From the IMG/VR virus record IMGVR_UViG_3300045988_185035: a stretch of DNA of 64,000 bases. One strand, given 5' to 3'. Source of the DNA: a virus. Shown piece by piece: positions 15,817 through 56,972 of this stretch; position 1 is the stretch's first letter; each line of letters opens with the position of its first letter. The notes under the pieces were generated by a model. It was not told where the DNA came from, searched no databases, and was given only the letters and a program-made list of their open reading frames with translations. The translations under genes and the position numbers were made by a program.

Positions 15817-15904
15817 TGTTGAGTCCTCCTTGCAAATAAAAAAGCAGGCTCTTAAAAGAACCTGCTTTCGTGGTCGTTAATACACTTTTTGGTCTACAAT
15901 ATTC

Positions 15905-15932
15905 AGTTTACTCAATTCGCACAAACGCGCAA
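15905..15932 (-). promoter_or_regulatory. sigma70-like promoter with conserved GTGCGAATTG spacer (TTGCGC-N16-TAAACT)
   Basis: Member of the repeated promoter-like motif family described in the findings. Confidence 0.45.
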
Positions 15933-15952
15933 GAAGGCAACATGAAACGGTT

Positions 15953-16429
15953 TTATTTCCATTCCATATATGGAATATGTGCCAGCATAAGCAAACACAC
16001 TTCAAGATTTGATTCGATGTAACGAGCAATTGTATCGAATCGTTGATTCAGACTCAATGACTCAAAAGTGTAGCCGGATTCAGAGAGAATCATTTCCTCG
16101 CTGCTGGTATACATAACATTGAGCATCGCCGTCAATGCTTGCAGGATTTCCGTATCGCAGTCCTTCTTTGTGAAGAAGAAATATCGTGTTGAGTTCCCAT
16201 CGGTGATGCCGATTTTGCCTTCATAGCCATCAAAACTTGCAAGGTCGCCGAATAAGCTGCAAGCAATATAGCCAAGCTTTTCTTCAACCGGCACAGTGAC
16301 CCACAAAGGATAACGCTCGTTTGGCTGAAAATCAGTCTTGCCACAGTTATACTCCCACTCGATGAAAGTACGAATACTGATAACTTCTCCGTACGGCGTA
16401 ATAATTTTGACGTTTTCCAATTTACTCAC
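15953..16429 (-). CDS. hypothetical protein (158 aa)
   Basis: Six-frame ORF with RBS GAGGTGAGTAAATTG-ATG; promoter motif at about 16455-16478. Confidence 0.55.
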   Translation of the reverse strand: MSKLENVKIITPYGEVISIRTFIEWEYNCGKTDFQPNERYPLWVTVPVEEKLGYIACSLFGDLASFDGYEGKIGITDGNSTRYFFFTKKDCDTEILQALTAMLNVMYTSSEEMILSESGYTFESLSLNQRFDTIARYIESNLEVCLLMLAHIPYMEWK

Positions 16430-16523
16430 CTCACTTGTGCGTCACATGACTTTATTGTATTCAATTCGCAATGAAAAGCAAAAAGAGGGGCCGCCTGACG
16501 GCAGTCCCTCTTATGCAATGTGA

Positions 16524-17033
16524 TTAGTATTTTCCGGCTTGTACACCGGGAATGGCTTCGATTTTCTTGAGGATGTTCTCGAAGTTGTGCATGACATACG
16601 ACGAGATTTCGCACATCTTCTCCTCGTGGTTCAGGGTGTCGAATTTGGCAAAAGCGCCGTTTTCCTCATAAGCAGCTTTCACCTCTGCGTAAACACGCTT
16701 GAAAACATTCGCGCTTTCGATGGCAACCTTGTCAGCGTAAAACGGGCACCAAACTTCTTTGGTAGTGTTGGCGGTCTTGATGAGGATAGGTTCTCCCCTG
16801 TCATCACCATTGCCCAGCATCTGGAACAGGGACATAGACATGGCCTGCATCTTCTGGGAAGGAGTCAACTCCTCCCATTTGGTGCCGGGTTCAGCAATCT
16901 TGCAACTGTTGAACTTGGCGTATGCACAGCCGGTCTCGGCCTGGTAGTTTTTGTCGCGAGTCTCCGTGTAAAGAAACTCGGCGACATCTTTGGTCGGCAT
17001 GGATTTGCCCATCAGAATAACAGTTTTGCTCAT
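16524..17033 (-). CDS. hypothetical protein (169 aa)
   Basis: Six-frame ORF packed against its neighbours. Confidence 0.55.
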   Translation of the reverse strand: MSKTVILMGKSMPTKDVAEFLYTETRDKNYQAETGCAYAKFNSCKIAEPGTKWEELTPSQKMQAMSMSLFQMLGNGDDRGEPILIKTANTTKEVWCPFYADKVAIESANVFKRVYAEVKAAYEENGAFAKFDTLNHEEKMCEISSYVMHNFENILKKIEAIPGVQAGKY

Positions 17034-17057
17034 GGTGGTATTCTCCTTTTTGAAAAA

Positions 17058-18491
17058 TTACATCGTCGGACTTTGCGGCAGCCACTGCTGCGGATAAGCA
17101 CGAAGCAGATTCTTAGGCACGCAATCGCTCAGCGCAGAGTTCTCAGCAAGTGCCATGTCGATGATGTAGTAATCATCACCGTTGCGCATCACATCAACAC
17201 TCCACTGCCCTGTCAGCTCTACGTGCGGAATAACCTTCTTCAGCTCATCCAGAACAATCTGGACACTCTCCTTGTAGCGCTTTTCCAGCACATCCTCGTG
17301 CATCTGGTAGATAACGTAGTCGTGCCGTTCCTGCGGACTGCTCACTTCCTGGAATTTGCCCTTCATCACATCGCTGCGCCAGTACGGACTGACGCCGAGA
17401 ATCGTCTTAGCATCGAAGTCCACAAACACGCGGTATTCAGTGTGCAGCGGCAGACCGTTATAGATAGTCGGATTCCCTTCCTTGTCTTTGATATACTCTC
17501 TGACAACCCACTCGTTGGTCGTATTTGCCCCGTAGAAGCAATGCCCATTGCCGGGTGCTGCCATAGAGCAGGTCAGATGGTTCAAAAACAAGAAATACTC
17601 GCCCATCTCACGGACCTCTTGAGGTTCATGGACATGGGCATTGCGGAACTCGTACTTGGAAGAGTACGTGCCGGTTTTGATGAAGTAGTCGCCATCATCG
17701 TCCAGATGGAAGATTCTCTTGCAGTAACGATTCACAATCGCTTTCGTCACGGGATTAAGCGTCTCAAAGCCGAGTCTCGTGAGTTGGAGCATCGTGATGG
17801 GCACATGCAAGAGTTTTGTCTCCGGCACCTTGAAGAACTTGTTGCCGTCCAAGGCAGCAACCAGTGGCGGCAGCCAGTAGCTCATCGTGTTCGGATTCAT
17901 TTCAAGCATTTGATATGTGATGTCATCGAGGTCCAGAATGTCGAGGCCCTGGCGGAACACGTGATACTGCATCGCTTTGTTTCGGTCGTTTCTCGCATCG
18001 AGATACGCCTTGTAATGGCTGAGCAGCACCTTATAAGACGGTTCCGAAATGTCAATCTTCATCAGATTGCCGGTCAGCTGCGGCCGAAGTTCTTCCGGGA
18101 ACTTCTTGAGGTCCTCATTCGTAACCGGCGGAAGGATATGCTGGTTTGTGGAATATCGAACATAATAGCCTCCACGCTCCGGCTCATAGATGTACATTCT
18201 GGTGTTGTCCATCAGCTCGGCAACGATTTTGTCAATGAGATTGTCCAGCTCTTTCGTAAAAGGCACGCTCTTATCGAGCATTGCCTTTACGGTTGCGGTA
18301 TCCCACTGGAGAAGGTTTTCGGACAGTGCGCCACTTTCCAGCACTTGGGTCCTGTAGACATCTTCAAAGGTCTTGAGCGCATCAGGGCTCGTTTTCAGCA
18401 TCGATGCAAGCTCCTCATAGGAAAACGACTCATTTTCCTTCTTTGAGAGCATCGCGCCGATTTGAGCAAGCATATCGTTGAGGTGAGCCAT
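17058..18491 (-). CDS. putative ATP-grasp fold enzyme (477 aa)
   Basis: C-terminal half shows ATP-grasp-like motifs: YFIKTGTYSSKYEFRN, EWVVREYI, EYRVFVDFD, DYYIIDMALAENS. Confidence 0.5.
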   Translation of the reverse strand: MAHLNDMLAQIGAMLSKKENESFSYEELASMLKTSPDALKTFEDVYRTQVLESGALSENLLQWDTATVKAMLDKSVPFTKELDNLIDKIVAELMDNTRMYIYEPERGGYYVRYSTNQHILPPVTNEDLKKFPEELRPQLTGNLMKIDISEPSYKVLLSHYKAYLDARNDRNKAMQYHVFRQGLDILDLDDITYQMLEMNPNTMSYWLPPLVAALDGNKFFKVPETKLLHVPITMLQLTRLGFETLNPVTKAIVNRYCKRIFHLDDDGDYFIKTGTYSSKYEFRNAHVHEPQEVREMGEYFLFLNHLTCSMAAPGNGHCFYGANTTNEWVVREYIKDKEGNPTIYNGLPLHTEYRVFVDFDAKTILGVSPYWRSDVMKGKFQEVSSPQERHDYVIYQMHEDVLEKRYKESVQIVLDELKKVIPHVELTGQWSVDVMRNGDDYYIIDMALAENSALSDCVPKNLLRAYPQQWLPQSPTM

Positions 18492-18850: not shown

Positions 18851-18888
18851 AAAAAGAGCGGGCCTCCCGCGTGGGAAGTCCGCTCTTC
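18851..18888 (-). terminator. leader hairpin plus U-tract (terminator-like) between the promoter motif and the start codon
   Basis: Minus strand AAGAGCGGACTTCCCACGCGGGAGGCCCGCTCTTTTTG lies 25 nt upstream of the ATG at 18823. Confidence 0.5.
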
Positions 18889-18949
18889 AAGCGAAATTGT
18901 GAATACGAAGGGCAAGTCGCCTTTTCGATTATGTTATCTATCGTACACT

Positions 18950-18987
18950 TTTATCTTATGCAATTCGCATATTTTGACAACCAAGTG
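18950..18987 (-). promoter_or_regulatory. sigma70-like promoter TTGTCA-N16-TAAGAT with GCGAATTGC spacer
   Basis: Minus strand TTGTCAAAATATGCGAATTGCATAAGAT. Confidence 0.5.
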
Positions 18988-20310: not shown

Positions 20311-20342
20311 TGGAAATTTCTCTTTTCAAATAAAAAAGAGCG

Positions 20343-20385
20343 GGCCTACCCCGGAATGGGATAAGTCCGCTCTTAAAACAGATTG
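20343..20385 (-). terminator. leader hairpin plus U-tract upstream of the MBL lipoprotein gene
   Basis: Minus strand AAGAGCGGACTTATCCCATTCCGGGGTAGGCCCGCTCTTTTTTATTTG. Confidence 0.5.
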
Positions 20386-20474
20386 TGAACGATAGAAAAT
20401 CGTAACATCTTTATGTGTTTGGTATCTATCGTACAATCAATATTGTAGTCAATTCGAAAGGAATGGCAAGGCCT

Positions 20475-24099: not shown

Positions 24100-24384
24100 T
24101 TACTTCACGATGCGGTCTTTTACCGCAGCTTCTGCCTCTGCGTACTGCCGAGCATGACTTTTGGCTTCCACCAGCAGAGCATCCTGCTCAACCTGAAGCA
24201 CTGCCTGCATTGAGGTGTGCTGTTTCCGCTTTGCACGTGAAACGGTATGCTGCCTGACCGCCTGGCGGATAGCTGCGTTTGTGTGTTGGATGCTGGCGGT
24301 TTCCTCATGCGAGAAGTCCCTATCTGTACCTCCTTGAAGATTAGACTCGGTTACAGTCTTGGCAAACTCAATAGATGTCGTCAT
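24100..24384 (-). CDS. hypothetical protein (about 94 aa)
   Basis: Internal start MTTSIEF with GGAGGCAGCT-ATG. Confidence 0.5.
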   Translation of the reverse strand: MTTSIEFAKTVTESNLQGGTDRDFSHEETASIQHTNAAIRQAVRQHTVSRAKRKQHTSMQAVLQVEQDALLVEAKSHARQYAEAEAAVKDRIVK

Positions 24385-24991
24385 AGCTGCCTCCGATTCC
24401 GGCCCAAAGAGCTTCATCACTCAAGTCGTTGCGCGGGCACTTAATAATGCCCGCTTCTCTTAAAATTTTTCTTGCTTCATTTGGCGTTAATCCATATTGC
24501 TTGGCAAGATTCGATAGAGACTGATTTGGAATAGCTCTGGCTTGGGCAATCAATCGTCTTTTCCTCTCGGCCCAATCGATTTCGGATTTCTTTGTTTTGG
24601 GTGCAGAGCGAACGGTTCTCTCGAAGTTGATTTCGAGGTCTTTTTGGTACTTCTTCGCGATTGCCTGAATGCCGCTGCTGGTCATGCCCCACTTTTCGGC
24701 GATGGTATTATAGGGCACACCATTTATGTAATCTTCGTAGATTTCCTTGTTTCTGGCACGCTTTGCCTGTGTGTTTCTTTGCCAGTTAAGGCGTGTCTTT
24801 TCCAAGCCGTATTCAGAGTCTGAACGAAGGATTTGTACAATCCTATAGCCAGACACGCCATATTTATCGGCCAAATCCACGACACACACGCCATCTATAT
24901 AATCTCGGTAAATCGCGTCATTACGTTCTTTCAAGGATTTATGGACGTCGTTATGTCTTGGCTTCATCTTAGTATCGCTATTTCCCATCAC
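24368..24991 (-). CDS. DNA-binding protein with three helix-turn-helix repeats
   Basis: Three HTH-like segments (IYRDYIDGVCVVDLADKYGVSGYRIVQIL; IYEDYINGVPYNTIAEKWGMTSSGIQAI; SLSNLAKQYGLTPNEARKILREAG). Confidence 0.55.
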   Translation of the reverse strand: MMGNSDTKMKPRHNDVHKSLKERNDAIYRDYIDGVCVVDLADKYGVSGYRIVQILRSDSEYGLEKTRLNWQRNTQAKRARNKEIYEDYINGVPYNTIAEKWGMTSSGIQAIAKKYQKDLEINFERTVRSAPKTKKSEIDWAERKRRLIAQARAIPNQSLSNLAKQYGLTPNEARKILREAGIIKCPRNDLSDEALWAGIGGSYDDIY

Positions 24992-26343: not shown

Positions 26344-27812
26344 AAAAGACGGTCGGTCAGTGCTTTAGCCTGCTCCGGCGTGATGAAAGGCAGTTCTACC
26401 TGCTTGATATAACGGTCCTGGCTCGTCATCAGCATTGTAAGAAACAGAACTTTTTGCTCAACGGACTTCCAAGTGGTTGGAACCTTCGCCATCTTGTCCT
26501 TGTGTAGGTACATGAAGAAGGCGATGGCGCTGTCGATGTCGTAAAAATCGAAGAAGTTTGCCTGCTGGTAGATGCCAATGCAGGGAGACAGGTCAATCAT
26601 CGCATCGGAGTGCTTGATTTCAATTTCCGTCTGGTCTTTCTGGAATACCTGCTTGGTTGTGATAAGGTTGTAGCACGCATCCACATCCTCATCAAACTTG
26701 AAATCGAACATTTCACTGATGTCGAATTTGTCCTTAAAGGTGGTGCGAGTCTTGACAGGGGTCATCAGTGTCTTGTCGCTCACGAGGCTACGCTTATCGG
26801 GTTTGACGAAGATGACCTCCTGCTTGCCACGGCTCGCAGCTACGCAAAAGAGGTTGCGCATGATTTCGTAGCGAGTCAGAGGCTGGCGCATACGGGTGGC
26901 CCAGTAATCCTCAGTGAAATCGAAAACTACACAGATAGGGCGCTCCATACCCTTGCTGCCATCGAACGTCGTGAAGATGCCCACGTTACCGTTCGGAGCT
27001 ACGCTCTTTTCACCATCGTTGTCCTTGATGCTGGCATAGACGTGCTTCTTATCATAGAGGTTGTCGGGACGTTCTTCCAAGGCATTCAAAACTGCGGCCA
27101 TCTGGCCGGTACGAGCGCCAAGGCATAGGACGTTCTTCGGGTCCAAATCGTTGAGGTACTCGATGACCTCATCCTTCGTCATGGACTTGACTTTGCAGTT
27201 CTCGTTGACTCCGTTGATTTCCTTATTCCAGATAGTGCCAAGGCGCTCGGCCAAGTCGTGGGACAAGCGGAAGCATTGGGTAAAGTTGACCTGCGTGTGT
27301 TTGCCGAGGAACTTGTTGATGAAGTTCCAGATGTCCAAGGATGTGGTGTCGTAGATTTTCTGCGCCATATCCCCCACCGCAATAATTTGCATGGTGGGGT
27401 TTTCTTCCTTGATATATTCAAGCATTCGAGAGATTTCTTCGTTAATATCTTGGTACTCATCGATGATGAGCACGTCATAGCGACCGACCGGAACATGCAA
27501 ATCGAGCGCCTTCTTAATTTGCTCGCCCTGTCCAATATTACGAACTCCGTGCCGATAGAGGAGTTTTGAAGCAAAGCCGTGGTAGTTCTGGACGACAACA
27601 TTGTCGTTTAGGATTTTTTCTTGCGCGTCGAGTTTTAGCAGACGGTTATAGGTCAGGTACAGAATCTGTTTGGAGGCGTCAAACTCGTTACACAACACGT
27701 TGATGGTCGATGTTTTACCGCTGCCGATGCAAGCGTCACAGAGTATATTTCTGCCTGCGAGAGCCAGGCGTACAAGGTCCTGTTGCTCAGTAGACAGGTT
27801 AGCGAGAGTCAT
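26301..27812 (-). CDS. SF1 DNA helicase, UvrD/PcrA-like, with C-terminal extension
   Basis: Walker A GSGKTS, motif II IIDEYQD, motif III VGDMAQKIY, motif V GIFTTFDGSKGMERP, motif VI RNLFCVAASRGKQE; GGAGGATTCAAACC-ATG. Confidence 0.85.
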   Translation of the reverse strand: MTLANLSTEQQDLVRLALAGRNILCDACIGSGKTSTINVLCNEFDASKQILYLTYNRLLKLDAQEKILNDNVVVQNYHGFASKLLYRHGVRNIGQGEQIKKALDLHVPVGRYDVLIIDEYQDINEEISRMLEYIKEENPTMQIIAVGDMAQKIYDTTSLDIWNFINKFLGKHTQVNFTQCFRLSHDLAERLGTIWNKEINGVNENCKVKSMTKDEVIEYLNDLDPKNVLCLGARTGQMAAVLNALEERPDNLYDKKHVYASIKDNDGEKSVAPNGNVGIFTTFDGSKGMERPICVVFDFTEDYWATRMRQPLTRYEIMRNLFCVAASRGKQEVIFVKPDKRSLVSDKTLMTPVKTRTTFKDKFDISEMFDFKFDEDVDACYNLITTKQVFQKDQTEIEIKHSDAMIDLSPCIGIYQQANFFDFYDIDSAIAFFMYLHKDKMAKVPTTWKSVEQKVLFLTMLMTSQDRYIKQVELPFITPEQAKALTDRLLCSRMTKRFRNVLS

Positions 27813-27846
27813 GGTTTGAATCCTCCAGAATACGTATTAACGCAAA

Positions 27847-27885
27847 AAGAATACCCCGGCAGGCACGCATGGTGTTCCGCCGGGG
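27847..27885 (-). terminator. leader hairpin plus U-tract upstream of the helicase gene
   Basis: Minus strand ACCCCGGCGG...GCCGGGGTATTCTTTTTGCG between the promoter motif and the ribosome-binding site. Confidence 0.45.
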
Positions 27886-27904
27886 TACAATTATTTATCT
27901 TACA

Positions 27905-27945
27905 ATATCAATTGTAGGCAATTCGCACAGATGGTCAAGCACTTT
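27905..27945 (-). promoter_or_regulatory. sigma70-like promoter TTGACC-N16-TACAAT with GTGCGAATTGCC spacer
   Basis: Minus strand GCTTGACCATCTGTGCGAATTGCCTACAAT. Confidence 0.5.
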
Positions 27946-28010
27946 TTATCGTATTTTGTTTTGAGTTTTGCGGGTACAAAAATAACGCCCACCCGTGATT
28001 TACGGATGGA

Positions 28011-28113
28011 CGTTCAATCTTACGCAGCCACATGTGCTGCTACGATGCTTTCGGACGACATGTAGCCGATACCGTCCTCGTTTCAATCTTACGCAGTCAC
28101 ACGGGCTGCTACG
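28011..28113. repeat. two about 34-bp direct repeats, each with an internal dyad GCAGCCACATGTGCTGC
   Basis: cgttcaatcttacgcagccacatgtgctgctacg and cgtttcaatcttacgcagtcacacgggctgctacgg; intergenic. Confidence 0.6.
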
Positions 28114-32934: not shown

Positions 32935-33065
32935 AGTGGTATTCTCCTTTATATTTGTTATTAGTTCCCTGTGGTACTTATTATTGTATGCGACTCGCAT
33001 AAGGCGTCAACCGTCGCGCCTACGGCTTTTGCAGCTATGCTCTCTTATCCGTTTAGCAGCTACGC

Positions 33066-33440: not shown

Positions 33441-33635
33441 ATTGGTGTTCTCCTTTGTGTGTTATTGAGATTCTTCTTGCACCTTTAATTGTACGCAAAT
33501 CGCACGATACAGCAATATAAAATTCCTTTAATAGAATCCGAAATATTTGAATTCAATTCGTGATTTCTTTGATTTTGTGATTTTCGCACGCGTAGGTGCC
33601 AAAAAGTTTATGTATAGCCTGGTTTATACTGACCT

Positions 33636-39053: not shown

Positions 39054-39134
39054 GTAGTAGCCTCTTTCTGCATAGTAAAAAGAAAGAGCGGGCGAGCCGC
39101 TCTCCTCAAGACACTTATTTATCTTACGATTTTT

Positions 39135-39175
39135 ATTCTATGCAATTCGCACAGACACGCAAGGCGAAATAGCGA
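39135..39175 (-). promoter_or_regulatory. sigma70-like promoter TTGCGT-N16-TAGAAT with GTGCGAATTGCA spacer
   Basis: Minus strand CCTTGCGTGTCTGTGCGAATTGCATAGAAT. Confidence 0.5.
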
Positions 39176-39791: not shown

Positions 39792-39981
39792 GTGCGCTTC
39801 TCCTTTACTTTAGTCTACCTACAATGATACTCAATTCGAACGGATGAACAAGGAACCTTACGACATGTACATGGTTTCTTTAGAAATTGTTATCACGCTT
39901 TTAATAAACAGCGTCAAATCTCGCATTTTTGTATTCCATGTGTTATAAATGCAAGTAGAAAAGAAGGATGAGGCGTTTTTT

Positions 39982-44524: not shown

Positions 44525-44560
44525 CTGATTTTTATTATCTGCAATTCGCACAATTCATCA
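44525..44560 (-). promoter_or_regulatory. sigma70-like promoter TTGATG-N17-GATAAT with GTGCGAATTGCA spacer
   Basis: Minus strand TTTGATGAATTGTGCGAATTGCAGATAATAAAAATC; directly follows a terminator. Confidence 0.5.
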
Positions 44561-44574
44561 AATTTTCGCAGATA

Positions 44575-44626: not shown

Positions 44627-45493
44627 TTAGAACTTGAAGAATCGAGGCACAATACCATCTTTGTCCATGTCCAGAATCATGGCAGCGAAAGTATCCATCT
44701 GAATCGGCACAAACTCAGCCGTATAGCTGAGCGAGCCGCCGGACTCTTCTGCAATGTCAAGCATCGTCTTGAGGAATGCTGTAAAGTCCTGAATCTGGTT
44801 AGGTTTGAGGGTGACGCTCGTGCAGATAGAGAGGCAACCCTCATCTACATCTGCTACATCGCCTTCCTCGCGGCCGAAGACGCTCCTGACGGACTGAACT
44901 GCAGCCAGCATCTTATCGACCTGCTGAACGGTGAAGGTATTTCCCGCTTTCAGCTCCATCTCGAAGGTGTAGCAGAACCAGAAAGGAATATCCTTTACCG
45001 CTTCTTCCGACACATAATCGGGACTGTCGCACAGCGTCTTGCCATCAAAGGTCAGCATCGACACATGGCTGTCCACGTCGTAGTATTCAAGGCCCTGATA
45101 CCGGACCGATTCAGCCCCGCAATCCTGCAAAATATCGCTCCAGAATGCAGAGCCGTAGAAGATGCTGTGGCTGAAGTAGTGAATCATGCCGTAAGACAGA
45201 AACGCTTCAACGTCCACATCTTCGAGGATACGCGAAACGGCATCCTCCACTTCCGGCGTGCTCTGCCAGCTGGTATCGAGACCATCAAGCCCCTTCCCGC
45301 CGGTCTTGTTGTGAATGTCCAGAGCAGTTTTCCCGTCAAGTTTGATGACCATTGCGCTAAGACTCATGGACTCGATGCTGGCGGTATCGAGGAACTGGCG
45401 CAAATACCGCGCCAAATCTTTACGTACCTGCTCGGCACCCTTCTCACCTTTCCCGATAATGATGCGCTCAATAGCGACAAGTTCAGTGCTCAT
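44627..45493 (-). CDS. hypothetical protein (288 aa)
   Basis: Six-frame ORF. Confidence 0.55.
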   Translation of the reverse strand: MSTELVAIERIIIGKGEKGAEQVRKDLARYLRQFLDTASIESMSLSAMVIKLDGKTALDIHNKTGGKGLDGLDTSWQSTPEVEDAVSRILEDVDVEAFLSYGMIHYFSHSIFYGSAFWSDILQDCGAESVRYQGLEYYDVDSHVSMLTFDGKTLCDSPDYVSEEAVKDIPFWFCYTFEMELKAGNTFTVQQVDKMLAAVQSVRSVFGREEGDVADVDEGCLSICTSVTLKPNQIQDFTAFLKTMLDIAEESGGSLSYTAEFVPIQMDTFAAMILDMDKDGIVPRFFKF

Positions 45494-45503
45494 AAAAGCT
45501 CCT

Positions 45504-45671
45504 TTACTCTATATGGATAGGTAGTTCGATTTCCGCCTCGTTATGCTTTAGAGGCGGCAAGACCTGCTCGTACTCCGCAATCTTTTCAGCCAGTTCGGCA
45601 GCGCTCAGCATTTTGATTTCCGGCGGAACAATGCAGCGGTCATCAACGACATAGTTCTTAGTGCCCATAGG
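45504..45671 (-). CDS. small hypothetical protein
   Basis: ATG start close to the upstream stop; weak GAGGGA ribosome-binding site. Confidence 0.35.
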   Translation of the reverse strand, partial: PMGTKNYVVDDRCIVPPEIKMLSAAELAEKIAEYEQVLPPLKHNEAEIELPIHIE

Positions 45672-45678
45672 CATTCCC

Positions 45679-46179
45679 TCACAGTGCAGCCAGATAGTGA
45701 ATCGCCATCTTTGCAAACCCGATAGCAGATACAAAGCACCATCCTGCTTTTCCAGCCCAGATAACCTTTGTATAGATGGGTAATACCTTTCGGACCGGCT
45801 CCAATTTCCCGAATGCAAGAGGAATTGCGGATACCATCAGCAGCGAAATGTCAAACGCTAAACAAACAAACACAGTTAAACAGTAGTTCAGCATGAGTTG
45901 AGCTTCGACCTTATTGACTTCAATTAAGCGCAAAGCCAACAAAGCAAATGCCGTTGAAATCACACAGCTAATGACAAGGATTCGTACCGTATGGTTCAGA
46001 GTATCCTCGGGTGATAGGTATTTTCTTTTGCCGCAGCAATAGGTTACTTCTTGGAAGGCTTTACGCCCAAAATACAAGTTATAAACACCATTTACTGCGA
46101 AAAGGATAGCTGTTATGGAGAACAGCGCCACTCTGCAAATATCAACGATACCCATAGGAATCAAAAGGAGAACTTGCAC
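45679..46179 (-). CDS. polytopic membrane protein
   Basis: Multiple hydrophobic helices. Confidence 0.5.
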   Translation of the reverse strand: MQVLLLIPMGIVDICRVALFSITAILFAVNGVYNLYFGRKAFQEVTYCCGKRKYLSPEDTLNHTVRILVISCVISTAFALLALRLIEVNKVEAQLMLNYCLTVFVCLAFDISLLMVSAIPLAFGKLEPVRKVLPIYTKVIWAGKAGWCFVSAIGFAKMAIHYLAAL

Positions 46180-47048
46180 TCACGGCGCTCGCGGCCATTG
46201 CCGCACCAATAGTGCCGCCAGGTGGGAGCCTTACCGTTCGCTTCCTTCTTGTAACGCTCCATCAGATAATGGCCCACCACAAAGGTCTTGATATTGACTT
46301 TCTTGGTCTGGCCCTTGAACGTAAAGACAGGACGTTCGTCCTTTTTCGGGCTGTCCAGACGAATCTCCGCGCCTTTGCTGGCAAGGTAGTAGGCACACAG
46401 CATTGCGAGACGGACATAGGGCGTGCCTTCGCCGTAAACAGACGGGATAGCGTCCAGCGTTTCAGGAATAGTGATGTCATCTTTATCGCGGGTCGAAGAT
46501 GCCTTTTCGATGTACTGTTTCGTGCTGCGAGTCGCCTCCGTCAAGCTCTGACCCCCCTTAATCCAAGCGGGAAGGGACAGGAACGCGAAGTTCTCCTTCT
46601 CGTTCTGGACGGGGCCGACAAGGACGATGCCAACGAAGGTGTCATCCGTCTTTGTATCGAACTCGATATGCACGAACATGCCGCAGTAGTCCACGCTGTT
46701 GTACAGAGGCACATAGAAGTTCTTGAACGGCAGGCGCTCCAGCACCTCGCGATGGAGGGTGAGGTCATCGGTATCCATCAGCAGTTCCAGAAAATCCTTG
46801 CCGAAATCGTAGATGACCTTGGTCTGATTCCAGTTGGCGATGGTGTAGCACGGGAAAATCTGGGCAGCCAGCACCTTTTCAAAGCCAGGCTGCTGCATCT
46901 GCTGGGCAACACGCAGGCACTGAAGCGTAGCGCCCTTGGTGAATTCGTCCAGCGTCTTGCCGCAGGGGTCCTCAAAATCGAAGCCGGTACGGGTCGAGCG
47001 AGTAACGGCATTGGCGGTGAGTGCGATACGAACCTGTTCAGAAGTCAT
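46161..47048 (-). CDS. hypothetical protein (295 aa)
   Basis: Six-frame ORF; structured intergenic region containing the CGTGGAGGC motif lies upstream. Confidence 0.6.
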   Translation of the reverse strand: MTSEQVRIALTANAVTRSTRTGFDFEDPCGKTLDEFTKGATLQCLRVAQQMQQPGFEKVLAAQIFPCYTIANWNQTKVIYDFGKDFLELLMDTDDLTLHREVLERLPFKNFYVPLYNSVDYCGMFVHIEFDTKTDDTFVGIVLVGPVQNEKENFAFLSLPAWIKGGQSLTEATRSTKQYIEKASSTRDKDDITIPETLDAIPSVYGEGTPYVRLAMLCAYYLASKGAEIRLDSPKKDERPVFTFKGQTKKVNIKTFVVGHYLMERYKKEANGKAPTWRHYWCGNGRERRECKFSF

Positions 47049-51431: not shown

Positions 51432-51669
51432 ATACATACTCCTTTCGCTCATCACAACCAATGCCTGTCTTTTGTGCAGGCGCGAATACAAACAAAAAAG
51501 CTGCGGAAGCAAAAGCAACCACAGCCTTTTATATGAACCACCGGCCCAGGAAAAAGCCGATGGGGTGAATACAAGCGGAAAGCAAACATGTCAAAGTGAG
51601 AGGAAACCACGTCGTACACACCGGCAGGAAGAGGTTAAGACCCGCCGGAACCCAATTCCGCTTGTACAA

Positions 51670-51705
51670 TTCTAATTCTACGCAATTCGCACAAATGCAC
51701 AAGAC
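51670..51705 (-). promoter_or_regulatory. sigma70-like promoter TTGTGC-N16-TAGAAT with GTGCGAATTGCG spacer
   Basis: Minus strand CTTGTGCATTTGTGCGAATTGCGTAGAAT; lies 230 nt upstream of the flotillin start codon. Confidence 0.5.
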
Positions 51706-52618: not shown

Positions 52619-52708
52619 GTATCACACCTTTGCTGATATTTTGCGAAAAAGTTATAATGTGACAACCATTGCAATGGATACTGTTGCCAATTCGCACGTT
52701 TTGGCAAC

Positions 52709-54369: not shown

Positions 54370-54435
54370 ACAGGCTCCTTTCTGTCAATTGGACAATTTA
54401 TCATTTTTTGTCAATTCCGCTCACAAATAAAGTGA

Positions 54436-54466
54436 CGATATTGACGAATTAGCGCAATTCCGTATA
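54436..54466 (+). promoter_or_regulatory. consensus sigma70 promoter TTGACG-N17-TATAAT (plus strand)
   Basis: ttgacgaattagcgcaattccgtataat; the spacer contains GCGCAATTC, reminiscent of the minus-strand motif. Confidence 0.6.
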
Positions 54467-54499
54467 ATTAAAATCAGCATTACAGAATAGCAATGAAAG

Positions 54500-54895
54500 T
54501 TGGTGTTTTCTATGGCAGCTTCCAGCCATGCGCCCCGTCCGTATCATCTGACTCCCGCAGAGGAAACCGTTATGAAAGCTTTCTGGAACAGCAAAAAGCC
54601 GCTGTGCCAGCAGGATATCCTTGACCATGTGAAAGAGAATGGTGACCTGTTCTGGAAAGAGCGTTCCATCTTCGCCATCATCAATTCCTTGATGAAGAAA
54701 GGCTGTATTAAGGAAGATGGTATGGTTCGCGCAGGTAAGACCTATGTGAGAACCTTTGTCGCAGCTATGAGCCGTCCGGAGTTCTACGCCGCTATGGTTA
54801 CAAACGCTCTGACAAAGAAGGAACTGGTCGAGTTCCGCCGCGCTATGCGTCATTTGGCGAGTGAAGACACTGAGTCTCCTGACGAGGAGGCTTGA
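54500..54895 (+). CDS. BlaI/MecI/CopY-family winged-helix transcriptional repressor
   Basis: LTPAEETVMKAFW..QQDILDHV....ERSIFAIINSLMKKGCIKEDG...KTYVRTFV pattern of penicillinase-repressor-family regulators. Confidence 0.65.
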   Translation: MVFSMAASSHAPRPYHLTPAEETVMKAFWNSKKPLCQQDILDHVKENGDLFWKERSIFAIINSLMKKGCIKEDGMVRAGKTYVRTFVAAMSRPEFYAAMVTNALTKKELVEFRRAMRHLASEDTESPDEEA

Positions 54896-54901
54896 CCTCA
54901 T

Positions 54902-55210
54902 TTGGAGGTGATTCTTGTGTCAAATGCACGAATGCTGGGTGCTTATATCAGGCAGAAAATGGAAGAGCGGAATGTTTCAGTGTCCTCTGTTGCTTCCCTG
55001 CTCGGATGCCAGGAAGTCGAGGCAGAAAGGTTTTTATGCGGCCGTGTACTTGCGACGTATCCGCAGATGAAGCAGATTGCTGAGTATCTTGGCTTATCTG
55101 TGCATGAACTCCTGCGGAACGCCTCTCAACTTGAGGAGGATACCCCTAAAAAGAAAGTGCTCGACATCATCTGGGATTACATGGATGTCAGAGACGCGGT
55201 ATTATGTTAA
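54902..55210 (+). CDS. XRE-family HTH regulator
   Basis: LGAYIRQKMEERNVSVSSVASLLGCQEVEAERFLCGR...QIAEYLGLSVHELL. Confidence 0.6.
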   Translation: MEVILVSNARMLGAYIRQKMEERNVSVSSVASLLGCQEVEAERFLCGRVLATYPQMKQIAEYLGLSVHELLRNASQLEEDTPKKKVLDIIWDYMDVRDAVLC

Positions 55211-55232
55211 CCACACGCCACGGTGGTGGGCC

Positions 55233-55505
55233 TTAACAAGGGTCTGCTGCTGTGGCGCTTTTTCGTGCTTCCACGAACCATTTATCTACTTCATAATAGA
55301 GATATGTGCTGGCTCTGCCAATCTGGCATGTATAGCGTACTCCCACGCCGCCGGTTTTAGAGTATTTGCGCGGCATCACCTCCGAAATGTTTGTGATGTC
55401 GAAGCGTTGGCCCGTATCCCAGATAACGGTCTGTGGTATGAGCGTTCCGTCCGGCTGAAAGTCAGCGATGACCTCAACATATTTCTTGATTCTCTGTTCT
55501 GGCAT
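55233..55505 (-). CDS. hypothetical protein (90 aa) immediately downstream of the Y-family polymerase gene
   Basis: Six-frame ORF with a 3-nt gap to the polymerase gene; could be a polymerase accessory protein, which cannot be verified from sequence alone. Confidence 0.45.
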   Translation of the reverse strand: MPEQRIKKYVEVIADFQPDGTLIPQTVIWDTGQRFDITNISEVMPRKYSKTGGVGVRYTCQIGRASTYLYYEVDKWFVEARKSATAADPC

Positions 55506-55508
55506 GGA

Positions 55509-56777
55509 TTATATGCTCCCTTGTAAGTATCCGTGTGGGTGAATCGTATGGTCTGCCCTCGCGTCGCAATGTGAGAGGAGTCGGTCCTTATACATCACGG
55601 CTCGCTGCACGGAATAGTATCCAAATCTATTTCGGACCCCATCAATGGCAGATTCTAAGCGTTCCATCTCTTCTTGCTTTTCGGCACTGAAGTCGAACGA
55701 GATTTGGCAAGGCTCCGTATCCGGCTGTAGGTCTATGGCCCGCACGCCAATGGAACGAAGATGCTCGCTCCAATGATAGTGCTTTTTATATAACGTGAAC
55801 GCGGCGGTCGCTATCTCTTGCTCTTGCATCGTCGGCAGGGACAGCTTCATCTGGCGCTCGAAGCTGAATAGGTTGGAGTCCCTCAAACTCACCTCCACGC
55901 CTCGGCATCGGAAATGGCTCTCTCGGAGGCGTGCCGCGACACTCTCTGCGAGCAGGTAAAGCACTATCCAAACATCCTGGTCGGTCTTTAAGTCCCGTGG
56001 TGTCGTCCAGCTATTTCCGATGCTCTTGATGGGAGCAAGCACCTCCCGCTGCTCGTACTTCGCCACCGGGTCAGAATCCAGGCCGTTGGCAAACCTCCAG
56101 AGCAAGAGTCCTACCTTGCCGAGCTTCTCCTGCAAGAACTGAGGTCTGGTCTTCGCCAAGTCTCCAATGGTATGTATGGCATAGTTATCTAACTTGGCTG
56201 CCGTTTTCTTTCCTACATATAGCAAATCCGAAGCAGGCAGTGGGAAAACTATCTTCTCGAAGTTCTGCCTATTGATGACCGTAATGGCATCCGGCTTTTT
56301 ATAGTCCGAGCCGAGCTTTGCCATCGTCTTATTCCAACTGACTCCGACCGAACATGTGATACCGAGTTCGTCCTTGACGGTGTCGGAAATTTTCTTTGCT
56401 ATCTCCTCACCTGTCCCAAAGAGAGACTGACTCGCGGTACAATCGAGCCAGGCCTCGTCCAAACCAAACGGTTCGACTTGGTCGGTGTAGCGAAGGAAGA
56501 TTTCTCTTGTGTAGTCGCTGAATCGGGTGTATAGGTCATAGTGAGCCGGAACAAAGGTGATGTCTCTGCAATGCTGCTGCGCCTCCCAAAGCGGCATACC
56601 GGTTTTTACCCCCATCCGCTTGGCCGGATACGAAGCTGTCAATACGATGCCGCTCCGTCGCTCTGGGTCACCGCATACTGCAATCGGCTTGTCCCGCAAT
56701 TCGGGATGGTAGGCCATCTCGCAGCTGGCATAGAAACAGTTCATATCGCAATGAAGGATGGCTCGCTCTTTTGCCAT
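55509..56777 (-). CDS. Y-family DNA polymerase (DinB/UmuC-like translesion polymerase)
   Basis: AILHCDMNCFYASCE catalytic motif; GIVLTASYPAKRMGVKTGMP; length and arrangement typical of DinB. Confidence 0.85.
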   Translation of the reverse strand: MAKERAILHCDMNCFYASCEMAYHPELRDKPIAVCGDPERRSGIVLTASYPAKRMGVKTGMPLWEAQQHCRDITFVPAHYDLYTRFSDYTREIFLRYTDQVEPFGLDEAWLDCTASQSLFGTGEEIAKKISDTVKDELGITCSVGVSWNKTMAKLGSDYKKPDAITVINRQNFEKIVFPLPASDLLYVGKKTAAKLDNYAIHTIGDLAKTRPQFLQEKLGKVGLLLWRFANGLDSDPVAKYEQREVLAPIKSIGNSWTTPRDLKTDQDVWIVLYLLAESVAARLRESHFRCRGVEVSLRDSNLFSFERQMKLSLPTMQEQEIATAAFTLYKKHYHWSEHLRSIGVRAIDLQPDTEPCQISFDFSAEKQEEMERLESAIDGVRNRFGYYSVQRAVMYKDRLLSHCDARADHTIHPHGYLQGSI

Positions 56778-56972
56778 AATATACAACCTCAATTCGTACA
56801 GATGGTTCCTAATTCGCATATAACAACCGACTGTTGTTATTATAGCCTATCAAGTGGTGGGATGCAAGGGGTATGGAAGAATTTGCCGTTTGCAATCCCA
56901 TTAGTTACTCTACAACTGTGGAAGACCTTGACAAAAGAAAGAGAGGAGCTTGTTTGGCTCCCCTCTTTTACT

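What the first reader, a model, noticed from the sequence alone, without database searches (positions are those of the whole stretch)
15890..56815. Phage-specific promoter-like motif with a fixed GTGCGAATTGC spacer upstream of at least 14 minus-strand genes
Upstream of genes starting at 15816, 16429, 18823, 20310, 27812, 39053, 39791, 44500, 51431, 52618 and 56777 the minus strand reads TTGnnn-(N5)-GTGCGAATTGC-(N1-2)-TAcAAT/TAgAAT/TAAGAT. Variants precede 32934, 33440 and 34532. Two examples are GCTTGACCATCTGTGCGAATTGCCTACAAT and TTGTCAAAATATGCGAATTGCATAAGAT. The -35-like and -10-like hexamers with 16-17-bp spacing fit a sigma70-type promoter. A nearly invariant 11-bp spacer is not a sigma70 requirement. 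It suggests an additional factor, such as a phage activator, an anti-sigma or appropriator, or an alternative sigma, recognising one temporal class of promoters. The plus-strand BlaI/XRE promoter at 54436-54466 carries a related GCGCAATTC spacer. Promoters without the motif exist too, for example upstream of 805.
Basis: partly seen in the sequence, partly recalled or inferred. Interest (0 to 1): 0.65.

Follow-up and report, generated by a model that had tools for sequence, protein, structure and literature searches.

The report
Mobile-element promoter class with TGCGAA spacer
Thirteen same-strand promoters in this window share a conserved extra element between their -35 and -10 boxes, many feed into a conserved terminator-bearing leader RNA, and the host element looks like a gut conjugative megaplasmid rather than a phage.

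Summary
The motif is real. A weight-matrix scan finds 13 sites (21.6-40.3 bits), all on the minus strand and all in front of genes or a tRNA array. No other site in the window scores above 8 bits, and random sequence peaks at 18. One new site (11418-11445) lies outside the given range.

The architecture is TTGnnn-16 bp-TAnAAT. An independent sample of 103 related promoters shows the family-wide invariant is only TGCGAA, at -24..-19 from the leader's first G (-23..-18 in conventional numbering). It sits exactly 10 bp downstream of a similar TTGCC at -35.

About 39% of such promoters fire into leaders that end in an intrinsic terminator before the ribosome-binding site. One roughly 100-nt leader class has 190 copies in 0.9 Mb and covariation support.

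The element carries a VirB4-type transfer ATPase and shares pMP7017-like synteny with a tRNA array. "Phage-specific" is therefore doubtful.

I read this as a sigma-A promoter class marked for an element-encoded factor, probably positive, coupled to attenuation. A repressor operator is a serious rival. It is a new variant of a known kind.

The parts
11418..11445 (-). Motif promoter (TTGCCG-16-TATACT, spacer GTGCGAACCGC) about 45 nt upstream of tRNA-Thr (11297-11372).
   Evidence: Matrix score 28.9 bits; generic promoter scan hit 11445-11418; tRNA position.
15905..15932 (-). Motif promoter (TTGCGC-16-TAAACT, spacer GTGCGAATTGA) for the gene starting at 15816.
   Evidence: Matrix score 32.7 bits; sequence context.
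15838..15897 (-). Leader of the 15920 promoter. It starts GTAGACCAAAAAG and ends in an intrinsic terminator (hairpin 15869-15840 plus T tract) before the ribosome-binding site.
   Evidence: Terminator scan; fold; sequence.
16454..16481 (-). Motif promoter (TTGCTT-16-TACAAT, spacer TTGCGAATTGA) for the gene starting at 16429. The leader is short, with no terminator.
   Evidence: Matrix score 28.4 bits; leader fold.
18953..18980 (-). Motif promoter (TTGTCA-16-TAAGAT, spacer ATGCGAATTGC) for the operon 18823 to 16524.
   Evidence: Matrix score 32.7 bits; generic promoter scan.
18851..18946 (-). Class-B leader RNA: GUACGAUAGAUAACA, hairpin, UUCACAAUUUCGC, intrinsic terminator.
   Evidence: Covariance model R1, 51.4 bits, E 3.6e-8; terminator scan.
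20442..20469 (-). Motif promoter (TTGCCA-16-TACAAT, spacer TTTCGAATTGA) for the metallo-beta-lactamase-fold gene starting at 20310. It begins 6 nt after the stop codon of the upstream ORF.
   Evidence: Matrix score 30.1 bits; generic promoter scan; gene map.
20333..20434 (-). Class-B leader RNA with an intrinsic terminator.
   Evidence: Covariance model R1, 37.2 bits, E 2.6e-5; fold.
27911..27938 (-). Motif promoter (TTGACC-16-TACAAT, exact GTGCGAATTGC) for the operon 27812 to about 20475 (UvrD-like helicase, 451-aa protein, Mor-like protein and more). A strong terminator at 28014-27984 precedes it.
   Evidence: Matrix score 40.3 bits; promoter and terminator scans.
27844..27903 (-). Class-A leader: GUAAGAUAAAUAAUUGU followed by an intrinsic terminator, 60 nt in all.
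   Evidence: Fold -30.8 kcal/mol; sequence; related copies in L013, L116 and L118.
32983..33010 (-). Weaker motif promoter (TTGACG-16-TACAAT, spacer ATGCGAGTCGC) for the gene starting at 32934.
   Evidence: Matrix score 21.6 bits; generic promoter scan.
33488..33515 (-). Motif promoter (TTGCTG-16-TACAAT, spacer GTGCGATTTGC) for the gene starting at 33440, a paralogue of the 32934 gene.
   Evidence: Matrix score 32.1 bits.
39135..39162 (-). Motif promoter (TTGCGT-16-TAGAAT, exact GTGCGAATTGC) for the gene starting at 39053. It lies directly after the stop codon of the upstream ORF.
   Evidence: Matrix score 37.8 bits.
39077..39127 (-). Class-A leader: GUAAGAUAAAUAAGUGU followed by an intrinsic terminator (39105-39083).
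   Evidence: Terminator scan; fold; sequence.
39824..39851 (-). Motif promoter (TTGTTC-16-TATCAT, spacer GTTCGAATTGA) for the gene starting at 39791.
   Evidence: Matrix score 30.2 bits.
44534..44561 (-). Motif promoter (TTGATG-16-GATAAT, exact GTGCGAATTGC) for the P-loop gene starting at about 44500. The terminator at 44610-44583 precedes it.
   Evidence: Matrix score 28.0 bits; promoter and terminator scans.
51675..51702 (-). Motif promoter (TTGTGC-16-TAGAAT, exact GTGCGAATTGC) for the flotillin/SPFH gene. The terminator at 51761-51730 precedes it.
   Evidence: Matrix score 38.0 bits; terminator scan. The same promoter and leader recur in many relatives and in a Clostridiales MAG contig.
51520..51667 (-). 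Long structured leader of the flotillin gene, closed by GUACAAGCGG...CCGCUUGUAU.
   Evidence: Fold -54.8 kcal/mol; conserved in L007, L015, L020 and others.
52680..52707 (-). Weak motif promoter (TTGCCA-16-AACAGT, spacer GTGCGAATTGG) for the gene starting at about 52618. The terminator at 52738-52713 precedes it.
   Evidence: Matrix score 22.9 bits; terminator scan.
24368..24991 (-). Candidate factor only: a 207-aa protein with three tandem Mor/sigma-region-4-like HTH modules. It is itself encoded in a motif-driven operon.
   Evidence: Pfam Mor 9.5e-11 and a weak Sigma70_r4 match; PHROG 'late transcriptional activator' 1.3e-11. No evidence links it to the motif.

Best explanation
These sites are sigma-A (sigma-70-type) promoters of one regulon of a mobile element. 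The host RNA polymerase supplies the basal recognition through a -35 TTGnnn, a fixed 16-bp spacer, a -10 TAnAAT and a start at a purine 7 nt downstream.

In addition, the upstream half of the spacer carries a conserved asymmetric element. Its family-wide core is yGTGCGAA at -26..-19, counted from the first G of the leader, plus a G at -16. In this element it is extended to GTGCGAATTGC. It lies exactly one helical turn downstream of the -35 and resembles it (CTTGCCAA versus TGTGCGAA).

I infer that an element-encoded DNA-binding factor reads this block in fixed register with RNA polymerase. I favour positive action, as a class-II-type activator or sigma-associated co-factor. Because the factor acts at every marked promoter, the whole cargo region, tRNA array included, would be switched together.

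A second layer follows. About 40% of the promoters transcribe a conserved leader that ends in an intrinsic terminator ahead of the ribosome-binding site. In class B this is a Y-shaped 5' domain, then UUCACAAUUCUGC, then the terminator. In class A it is GUAAGAUAAAUAA followed by the terminator. Downstream genes would therefore need conditional read-through.

Shown: the motif, its register, its selective conservation, the leader structure and the terminators. Inferred: the existence, identity and sign of the factor, and the read-through.
For: 1. Thirteen same-strand sites score 21.6-40.3 bits, with no other site above 8 bits and random sequence peaking at 18. All lie in front of genes or tRNAs.
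2. A promoter-independent sample supports the architecture. Searching only for the leader start GTACGATAGATANCA gave 163 distinct copies. Of these, 135 have the promoter in the same register (6 nt, or in seven copies 5 nt, between the matrix window and the leader); the rest are chance matches in unrelated contigs.
3. The logo of 103 distinct upstream regions shows TTG at 100/97/100%, TGCGAA at 100/97/99/100/97/77%, G(-16) at 83%, TAnAAT at 98/100/-/94/92/100% and T(-1)G(+1). Positions -30..-27 and -18/-17 are free. This is selection on the block, not recency.
4. The 8-mers at -36 and -26 share 4.07 of 8 positions at a 10-bp offset, against 1.0-2.5 at other offsets.
5. The strict 19-base pattern gave only 3 hits in 185,579 species genomes, about chance level. 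One of them is a 223-kb 'MAG' contig carrying the same flotillin promoter. Two cultured Oscillospiraceae plasmids lack the motif. It is therefore element-specific.
6. Motif-less promoters in the same element carry an extended -10 TG (TGGTATAAT upstream of 6483, TGCTATACT upstream of 805). The motif class lacks TG at -15/-14. This fits the block contributing positively.
7. Leaders: 52 of 132 distinct promoters are followed by a terminator at +29..+123. For class B, 141 of 144 copies end in a terminator at +82..+108.
8. The class-B covariance model finds 190 copies in 0.9 Mb. Pairing holds in 92.5% of cells against about 40% when the partners are slid. Compensatory changes occur in 4 of 4 P2 pairs and 10 of 11 terminator pairs.
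9. The leader helix P1 begins exactly at the predicted +1.
10. Precedent: the related megaplasmid pMP7017 has a plasmid-specific 34-bp promoter-overlapping motif at 19 promoters, read by its authors as a transcription-factor site (PMC10832533; seen).
Against: 1. No factor has been identified. There is no sigma, Q or cII-like hit in the window. The Mor-like 3xHTH protein is only a candidate.
2. The core hexamers are decent (TTGCCA/TTGACA and TAnAAT), so the promoters might fire without help. That fits a repressor equally well.
3. The argument from missing extended -10 rests on two motif-less promoters.
4. A single 6-9-bp asymmetric site is short for an independent DNA binder.
5. No transcription start or expression data exist for this element.
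6. The antiterminator helix predicted in the class-B leader is weak (-3 to -6 kcal/mol, mean z -0.9).
7. The related loci were collected by motif searches, so copy densities are biased upwards.
Confidence: 0.4

Rival explanations
1. Operator for a global element-encoded repressor. The promoters are intrinsically active sigma-A promoters. A repressor sits on the TGCGAA block, and perhaps on the -35-like repeat, and silences the cargo region in established hosts. A burst of expression follows entry into a naive recipient, as zygotic induction or transcriptional overshoot.
For: 1. The hexamers are near consensus.
2. The site lies between and over the RNA polymerase contact points. A 13-bp block inside a 16-bp spacer is almost forced into one register.
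3. There are many dispersed, co-oriented asymmetric sites on a plasmid-like element.
4. Repressor-type genes with their own motif-less promoters are present: BlaI-like and XRE at 54500-55210(+), and XRE at 1586-1807. The 54441 promoter has an inverted partial core.
5. Precedents recalled from my own knowledge: P1 C1 operators, IncP KorA and the IncW ArdK regulon.
Against: 1. No stand-alone or differently positioned copies exist. All strong matches are in one register.
2. There is no dyad or second half-site other than the -35 itself.
3. The motif class lacks the extended -10 seen in the motif-less promoters.
4. An additional terminator layer seems redundant with tight repression.
Confidence: 0.25
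2. Lambda-Q-like loading site. The spacer block is where a processive antiterminator docks. A -10-like sequence in the first transcribed bases (TACGAT or TAAGAT at +2..+7) pauses the sigma-containing polymerase so the factor can load. The leader terminator, and later terminators, are then read through.
For: 1. The conserved element sits in the same place as the lambda QBE, between -35 and -10 (recalled from my own knowledge).
2. Class-A and class-B leaders start GTAAGAT or GTACGAT, that is TAnnnT at +2..+7.
3. An intrinsic terminator lies 50-108 nt downstream in 39% of promoters.
4. In four of five window cases the promoter sits between the upstream stop codon and the only terminator.
Against: 1. 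Most motif promoters (79 of 132) have no leader terminator, and many lack a -10-like initial sequence.
2. No Q-family protein was found by Pfam in the window.
3. Q systems known to me act at one promoter per genome, not at dozens.
Confidence: 0.1
3. The promoters are read by an element-encoded alternative sigma factor. Its -35 and -10 preferences resemble sigma-A, but it makes extra base contacts at -24..-16.
For: 1. The register is fixed and the block is as conserved as the hexamers.
2. A related conjugative plasmid of Vescimonas encodes sigma-70-family and ECF-type sigma factors next to its transfer genes.
Against: No sigma-like ORF was found with RpoD or with the two Vescimonas sigma proteins as queries in about 2 Mb of related loci, or by Pfam in the window. 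However, only part of each element was sampled.
Confidence: 0.1
4. No dedicated factor exists. The block is kept because promoter, leader and terminator units spread and homogenise as recombination cassettes, like the PeSLs of T4-type phages. Alternatively it tunes intrinsic promoter strength through polymerase-spacer contacts.
For: 1. The cassettes flank ORFans and paralogous gene pairs in one orientation.
2. Promoter, leader and terminator travel together.
3. PeSL precedent: PMC2839356 and PMC4122927.
Against: 1. Position-specific conservation persists across copies whose neighbouring spacer positions and leaders have diverged, and across elements whose proteins are only 25-60% identical.
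2. The two class-B leaders in the window are only loosely similar to each other.
Confidence: 0.1

Closest known systems
pMP7017 megaplasmid 34-bp promoter motif (Bifidobacterium breve; PMC10832533)
   Same: Both are plasmid-specific conserved sequences attached to many dispersed sigma-70-type promoters. In pMP7017 there are 19 sites covering about 24% of coding capacity. The motif is absent from host chromosomes and is read as a site for an unknown transcription factor. The element type is related: tRNA array, unidirectional gene block, AAA ATPase, sortase and a 40%-identical 477-aa protein. The -10 and start region of window promoter 15920 (TAAACTGAATATTGTAGACCAAAAAG) resembles the pMP7017 motif (TATACTGAATATGTCCACATAAAA).
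   Different: The pMP7017 motif covers the -10, the start site and the 5'UTR, and its spacer is not conserved. Here the conserved block lies in the upstream spacer at -24..-16. The sequences are unrelated apart from the one promoter noted, and the matrix finds nothing in 41 kb of pMP7017.
PeSL promoter/stem-loop cassettes of T4-type phages (PMC2839356, PMC4122927)
   Same: Both are repeated compact units that combine a sigma-70-like promoter with a terminator hairpin. They sit between ORFans in one orientation in plastic genome regions.
   Different: In PeSLs the stem-loop lies upstream of the promoter, and there is no conserved spacer block or structured leader. Here the terminator often lies downstream of the promoter, inside a conserved leader. 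Recombination between cassettes was not tested here.
Lambda PR'/Q antitermination module and lambda cII-dependent promoters (recalled from my own knowledge)
   Same: The Q-binding element lies between -35 and -10, followed by a -10-like pause element and a promoter-proximal terminator. The cII site is a TTGC-N6-TTGC direct repeat with 10-bp period in the -35 region. Here the pattern is TTGC-N6-(G/T)TGC.
   Different: No Q or cII homologue was found. There are dozens of sites per element instead of one to three. The repeat is shifted about 4 bp towards the -10, so its first copy coincides with the -35 hexamer. The -35 is good rather than poor.
Dispersed asymmetric operators of P1 C1, mycobacteriophage L5 stoperators, and the IncP KorA / IncW ArdK regulons (recalled from my own knowledge)
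   Same: Many copies of a short asymmetric site are spread over a mobile element, overlap promoters and define a global regulon.
   Different: Those sites occur in several registers or outside promoters. Here every copy is in one register inside the spacer, and no repressor has been identified.
Protein-dependent leader attenuators (BglG/LicT RAT-terminator type; recalled from my own knowledge)
   Same: In class-B leaders a weak conserved helix overlaps the 5' arm of a strong intrinsic terminator ahead of the coding region.
   Different: There is no sequence or Rfam similarity. The element is multi-copy, sits in front of unrelated genes and starts exactly at +1 of a dedicated promoter.

Membership tests
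Sigma-70 / sigma-A type promoter | -35 TTGACA-like and -10 TATAAT-like hexamers separated by 16-18 bp | tested here: met
   TTG is present in 13 of 13 window sites and at 97-100% in 103 independent relatives. TAnAAT has A2 and T6 invariant. The spacer is always 16 bp. The generic scan hits six of the sites.
Sigma-70 / sigma-A type promoter | Intergenic position, co-oriented with the downstream gene, with a pyrimidine(-1)/purine(+1) start 6-8 nt after the -10 | tested here: met
   All 13 sites are upstream of minus-strand genes or a tRNA. T(-1) is 97% and G(+1) follows 7 nt after the -10. The leader helix P1 starts at that G.
Sigma-70 / sigma-A type promoter | Mapped transcription start or in vitro initiation | not testable with these tools
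   No transcriptome or biochemistry is available.
   No structural phage family was found in the window, its flanks or the relatives. A VirB4-like CD1110-family ATPase lies 7-10 kb upstream, with best hits on plasmids of Subdoligranulum and Vescimonas. pMP7017-like synteny and a tRNA array are present. Only about 95 kb of a 186-kb contig was seen.
Lambda Q-type late promoter module | A factor site between -35 and -10, a sigma-dependent pause element in the initial transcript, and a downstream terminator | tested here: inconclusive
   A conserved spacer element is present at all sites. TAnnnT at +2..+7 occurs only in class-A and class-B leaders. A terminator is present at 52 of 132 promoters.
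Lambda Q-type late promoter module | A Q-family antiterminator gene | tested here: not met
   No Q-family Pfam hit in the window proteins. The rest of the element was not seen.
Lambda cII-type activated promoter | TTGC-N6-TTGC straddling a poor -35 | tested here: not met
   A 10-bp direct repeat TTGC-N6-(G/T)TGC exists. However, its first copy is the -35 itself, and that -35 is good.
T4 MotA-dependent middle promoter | A MotA box centred at -30 that replaces the -35 | tested here: not met
   The -35 TTG is retained at 97-100%, and the extra element is centred at about -21.
Frpo-type single-stranded-DNA promoter of plasmid leading regions | The promoter is rebuilt by a long hairpin of the transferred strand | tested here: not met
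   The best inverted match of each promoter within 500 nt either side scores no better than shuffled controls: 8-11 against null maxima of 10-12.
PeSL cassette | A repeated promoter plus stem-loop unit flanking ORFans | tested here: met
   Promoter plus terminator units lie between mostly unannotated genes.
PeSL cassette | The cassettes mediate recombination, producing indels and mini-circles | not tested
   No pairwise genome comparison across cassette borders was made.
Known RNA family (Rfam 15) for the leader | A match at the gathering score | tested here: not met
   Only tRNAs and HDV-like ribozymes reach the gathering score. The best leader hit is L20_leader at 23 bits, against a gathering score of 58.7.

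The most novel reading that the evidence does not exclude
The TGCGAA block and the conserved leaders form one system. It would be a multi-copy promoter-attenuator cassette, present in dozens of copies per element, through which a megaplasmid-encoded factor loads at the promoter or binds the leader RNA. The factor would convert abortive transcripts of about 50-100 nt into full-length mRNAs across the whole cargo region. That would amount to a regulon-wide Q/N-like antitermination switch in Firmicutes mobile elements, built on a previously undescribed RNA class.
Probability: 0.17. Interest if true: 0.8.

Novelty: new variant of a known kind. Interest (0 to 1): 0.58.

Why it matters
The motif would define the regulon of a large, widespread and uncultivated family of gut mobile elements. 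Contigs run from 40 to 390 kb, and many are filed as viral.

It offers a simple sequence handle (TTG-N8-TGCGAA-N6-TAnAAT) for three tasks:
- finding their transcription units;
- finding the factor that controls them;
- re-examining whether these contigs are phages or megaplasmids.

The associated leader has roughly 100 nt, 190 copies in 0.9 Mb and covariation support. It is a candidate new cis-regulatory RNA class whose ligand or protein partner is unknown.

Together with the pMP7017 motif, the finding suggests that gut megaplasmids commonly mark their own promoters.

Tried and rejected
1. Megablast of 27000-47000 against isolated phages found no match.
2. Blastn of one promoter-plus-leader cassette against PLSDB found no match.
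3. A full-text search for the motif strings returned only unrelated primers.
4. Sigma-factor hunts in about 13,000 ORFs of the related loci found nothing. Queries were the RpoD C-terminal half and two Vescimonas plasmid sigma proteins.
5. The Frpo-like hairpin promoter idea is rejected.
6. Host-genome motif is rejected for the strict pattern, which gave 3 hits in 185,579 species.
7. Cultured relatives (Subdoligranulum plasmid, Vescimonas pMM35_02, pMP7017) do not carry the motif.
8. RNAalifold on a plain MAFFT alignment recovered only the terminator. A hand-set structure and a covariance model were needed.
9. A TACAAT-N4-ATTGTA dyad across the -10 and start site appears in two window promoters. 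It is rejected at family level, because the third -10 position is C in only 21% of sites.
10. I compared the motif from memory with SigH, SigE/K, ECF, Spo0A-box, LexA-box and BlaI/CopY TACA-TGTA consensus sequences. None fits both spacing and sequence.
11. I checked by eye for covariation between TGCGAA variants and the leader's UUCACA. The leader stays UUCACA when the spacer reads TGCGAT or TTCGAG.
12. The weak Rfam L20_leader hit is not significant.

Full report

Yes, with corrections. GTGCGAATTGC with at most one mismatch occurs 8 times, always on the minus strand. None of 100 shuffles reaches 8.

I aligned the instances and built a 30-column weight matrix from 65 distinct copies in the window and related contigs. 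Scanning the window with it gives 13 hits of 21.6-40.3 bits, all on the minus strand. No other window position scores above 8 bits. First-order Markov sequences peak at 18 bits, with a mean maximum of 9.

The sites, from the first base of the -35 to the last base of the -10 in plus-strand coordinates, are:
- 11445-11418
- 15932-15905
- 16481-16454
- 18980-18953
- 20469-20442
- 27938-27911
- 33010-32983
- 33515-33488
- 39162-39135
- 39851-39824
- 44561-44534
- 51702-51675
- 52707-52680

The 56777 site is two partial cores in the 5'UTR of the DinB-like gene, behind a separate TTGCAT-17-TATAAT promoter. The 34532 site is a different promoter, TTGCGC-16-TATAAT, whose spacer holds the core in inverted orientation. 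The site at 11445-11418 is new. The 11-mer is exact in 4 of 13 sites, and the spacer is always 16 bp.

**2. Are they promoters?**

Four lines of sequence evidence say so.
- Every site has TTGnnn, 16 bp and TAnnnT. The generic sigma-70 scan found six of them without knowing the motif.
- All are intergenic and point at the next gene.
- Several are preceded by a strong intrinsic terminator of the upstream unit: 28014-27984, 44610-44583, 51761-51730 and 52738-52713.
- The sequence downstream begins with T(-1) and a purine(+1), 7 nt after the -10. In the commonest leader class a conserved RNA helix starts exactly at that purine.

No experimental start sites exist.

**3. Relatives, and what is actually conserved**

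Most are human-gut contigs of 40-270 kb. Of 140 matches, 63 had TAnnnT directly after the pattern, where about 5% is expected.

Reading these promoters showed that many run into the same leader, which starts GTACGATAGATAnCA. I used that leader as an independent probe for a second scan. Of 163 distinct leader copies, 135 have the promoter upstream in the same register: 6 nt between the matrix window and the leader's first G in 128 copies, 5 nt in seven. The remainder are chance matches in unrelated contigs.

This sample was not selected on the promoter, so its logo is informative. Positions below are counted from the first G of the leader as +1; conventional -10-based numbering is one less in magnitude.

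| Element | Position | Conservation |
|---|---|---|
| TTG | -35..-33 | 100 / 97 / 100% |
| C | -32 | 74% |
| Y | -26 | C or T in 99% |
| G/T | -25 | G 61%, T 22% |
| TGCGAA | -24..-19 | 100 / 97 / 99 / 100 / 97 / 77% |
| G | -16 | 83% |
| TAnAAT | -13..-8 | 98 / 100 / - / 94 / 92 / 100% |

Positions -30..-27 and -18/-17 are free.

The family-wide element is therefore TGCGAA plus a few flanking positions. The ATTGC tail is a feature of this element's clade. The pattern of invariant columns beside free columns, across elements whose proteins are only 25-97% identical, shows selection on the block itself.

The 8-mer at -36 (CTTGCCAA) and the 8-mer at -26 (TGTGCGAA) share 4.07 of 8 positions at a 10-bp offset. 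At any other offset they share 1.0-2.5. The block therefore looks like a second, -35-like half-site one helical turn downstream of the first.

**4. It is not a host feature**

The strict 19-base pattern gave 3 hits among 185,579 species genomes, about the chance number. One hit is a 223-kb 'Clostridiales MAG' contig that carries the same flotillin promoter and leader as the window.

Motif-less sigma-A-like promoters exist in the same element. Examples are TGGTATAAT upstream of 6483, TGCTATACT upstream of 805, and the promoters of the regulator genes. The block is therefore not needed for recognition as such, and it marks a class.

**5. The leaders**

In the promoter-seeded sample, 52 of 132 distinct promoters are followed by a hairpin plus T tract at +29..+123, before the ribosome-binding site. 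Within the window:
- 15920, 18968, 20457, 27926 and 39150 have such a terminator.
- 51690 has a long closed leader.
- The other seven have short plain leaders.

In four of the five window cases the promoter sits between the stop codon of the upstream gene and this terminator. No other terminator lies between them.

Two leader classes recur across elements.
- Class A is (G/A)UAAGAUAAAUAA(G/U)UGU followed at once by a terminator. Window copies are 27903-27844 and 39127-39077.
- Class B is about 100 nt. Window copies are 18946-18851 and 20434-20333.

For class B, 141 of 144 copies end in a terminator at +82..+108. The 5' domain folds as a Y:
- P1 is GUACG/CGUAC, starting at +1.
- A small hairpin forms on AUAGAU.
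- P2 is variable.
- The mean z-score is -2.2.

A covariance model built from 16 copies finds 190 copies at E<=1e-3 in 0.9 Mb of related loci. It finds four in the 85 kb available for this element.

On the model alignment, 92.5% of cells pair, against about 40% when the partners are slid. All 4 P2 pairs and 10 of 11 terminator pairs show compensatory changes. P1 never varies. That alignment is fitted to the model, which flatters the counts.

Between P1 and the terminator lies a conserved single-stranded AAUUCACAAUUCUGC. Its 3' end (UCUGC or UUCGC) is complementary to the conserved 5' arm of the terminator (GCAGA or GCGGA), and the two change together. The helix is weak, at -3 to -6 kcal/mol with a mean z of -0.9. 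That is the layout of an attenuator whose antiterminator needs help from a ligand or protein. Rfam has no matching family.

**6. What is the element?**

Probably not a phage.
- Pfam and PHROG scans found none of the usual phage structural genes. They found an AAA ATPase, a metallo-beta-lactamase-fold protein, a sortase, HNH nucleases, a flotillin, a YpsA-like protein, a DinB-like polymerase, phosphoesterases and a Mor-like protein.
- The window matches an ENA contig of 186,110 bp. Seven to ten kb upstream of the window's right end, on a 72.8-kb ENA contig that carries the same genes, lies a 902-aa VirB4-like ATPase (PF19044).
- Its best matches are on plasmids of Subdoligranulum variabile (247 kb) and Vescimonas fastidiosa, the latter beside a VirD4-like protein, pilins and sortases.
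- The 477-aa protein at 17058-18491 is 40% identical over its full length to proteins of Bifidobacterium megaplasmids. One is pMP7017, which has the same layout: an 18-tRNA array followed by a one-directional gene block with an AAA ATPase and a sortase.
- Genes near motif promoters in relatives include type IA topoisomerase, NAD-dependent ligase, helicases and nucleases.

I put about 0.7 on a conjugative megaplasmid of Oscillospiraceae. Many of its relatives are filed in IMG/VR as viral.

**7. Mechanism**

What is shown is the architecture. What follows is inference.

The fixed register, the single orientation, the absence of stand-alone copies, and conservation equal to that of the hexamers all argue that the block is read while RNA polymerase is on the promoter. 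I favour an element-encoded factor that acts positively (0.4). Three points support this:
- The motif class lacks the extended -10 TG that the motif-less promoters have.
- It has a slightly short spacer.
- The 10-bp direct-repeat geometry is typical of activators that sit at the -35 region.

A repressor operator is a serious rival (0.25). The hexamers are good, and global repressor regulons are usual on plasmids. BlaI-like and XRE genes with their own promoters sit on the opposite strand at 54500-55210.

A Q-like loader (0.1) would tie the block, the TAnnnT at +2..+7 of class-A and class-B leaders and the leader terminators into one system. However, most motif promoters lack those features, and no Q gene was seen.

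An alternative sigma (0.1) has no support from searches. Cassette spread without a factor (0.1) does not explain the column-specific conservation. A hairpin promoter of the Frpo type is excluded.

**8. Comparison with known systems**

The nearest precedent is the 34-bp plasmid-specific motif that overlaps the -10 of 19 promoters of pMP7017. Its authors interpret it as the site of an unknown transcription factor (PMC10832533). I found four copies in 41 kb of pMP7017. Its conserved part is the -10, the start region and the 5'UTR, not the spacer.

The cassette layout recalls the PeSLs of T4-type phages (PMC2839356 and PMC4122927). The position of the block recalls the lambda QBE, and the repeat recalls the cII box. 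Both comparisons are from memory, and neither membership test is met.

I file the finding as a new variant of a known kind: a mobile-element-specific promoter class. Attached to it is a candidate new leader RNA class.

**9. Limits**

- Only part of the element was seen.
- The related loci were gathered by motif searches, which inflates copy densities.
- The family-level motif could not be scanned against bacterial genomes.
- Nothing here measures transcription.

Noticed in passing
window 976-3150 and 7322-11372 (minus strand); ribozyme hits at 7415-7488, 7684-7755 and 9894-9976: There are 22 tRNA genes in two arrays. Three Rfam HDV-F-prausnitzii ribozyme matches (44.6-51.2 bits, gathering score 44) are interleaved with the second array. 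One motif promoter (11445-11418) heads part of that array.
   Followed up: partly
window 18851-18946 and 20333-20434 (minus); L239 16301-16404; 190 copies in related loci: This is the class-B leader, of about 100 nt, which no Rfam family matches. It comprises GUACGAUAGAUAnCA, a Y-shaped 5' domain, AAUUCACAAUUCUGC and an intrinsic terminator. Covariation supports P2 and the terminator. It looks like an attenuator with an unknown effector.
   Followed up: yes
window 54370-54500, with plus-strand genes 54500-54895 and 54902-55210: This is the only plus-strand operon. It encodes a BlaI/Penicillinase_R-like repressor and an XRE protein. It diverges from the YpsA-like gene across a region with the palindrome TGTCAATTGGACA and repeated TGTCAATT. 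It looks like a genetic switch. Its promoter (TTGACG-16-TATAAT) has GCGCAATTC in the spacer.
   Followed up: partly
L235 814-3522 (7-10 kb beyond the window's right end); L242 (pMP7017): A VirB4-like conjugation ATPase lies just upstream. The synteny is pMP7017-like: tRNA array, AAA ATPase, sortase and a homologue of the 477-aa protein. Many relatives filed as viral contigs in IMG/VR may be megaplasmids.
   Followed up: partly
window 15905-15910 plus downstream to 15885, compared with L242 11301 and 33363: The -10 and start region of the 15920 promoter (TAAACTGAATATTGTAGACCAAAAAG) matches the published pMP7017 promoter motif (TATACTGAATATGTCCACATAAAA) at about 19 of 24 positions with one gap. 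The hosts belong to different phyla.
   Followed up: no
window 33120-33440 / 32608-33000, and 39180-39791 / 37341-38060: These are two pairs of paralogous genes. In the first pair each copy has its own motif promoter. In the second pair only the 39180-39791 copy does, which suggests that some gene-plus-promoter units were duplicated as cassettes.
   Followed up: no
window 24368-24991 (minus): This 207-aa protein has three tandem Mor/sigma-region-4-like HTH modules and matches the PHROG family 'late transcriptional activator'. Tandem HTH modules would suit a direct repeat with 10-bp period, but nothing links the protein to the motif.
   Followed up: partly
window 3631-6483 (minus): This 950-aa secreted protein has a signal peptide, a low-complexity Ser/Thr-rich linker and about 13 Cys-containing repeats of roughly 55 aa. 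It has no Pfam match and is probably a surface adhesin.
   Followed up: no
class-B leaders at about +47..+52, compared with the promoter at -24..-19: The most conserved single-stranded leader block, UUCACA, is the reverse complement of the promoter block TGCGAA apart from one base (a perfect complement would be UUCGCA). The two lie about 71 bp apart. The match may be chance, or the blocks may be an inverted pair of sites.
   Followed up: partly
L137 3922-5619 and homologues in 12 related loci: RRXRR plus HNH proteins of 566 aa, with an IscB-like domain combination, are the most widespread large ORF near motif promoters in the relatives.
   Followed up: no
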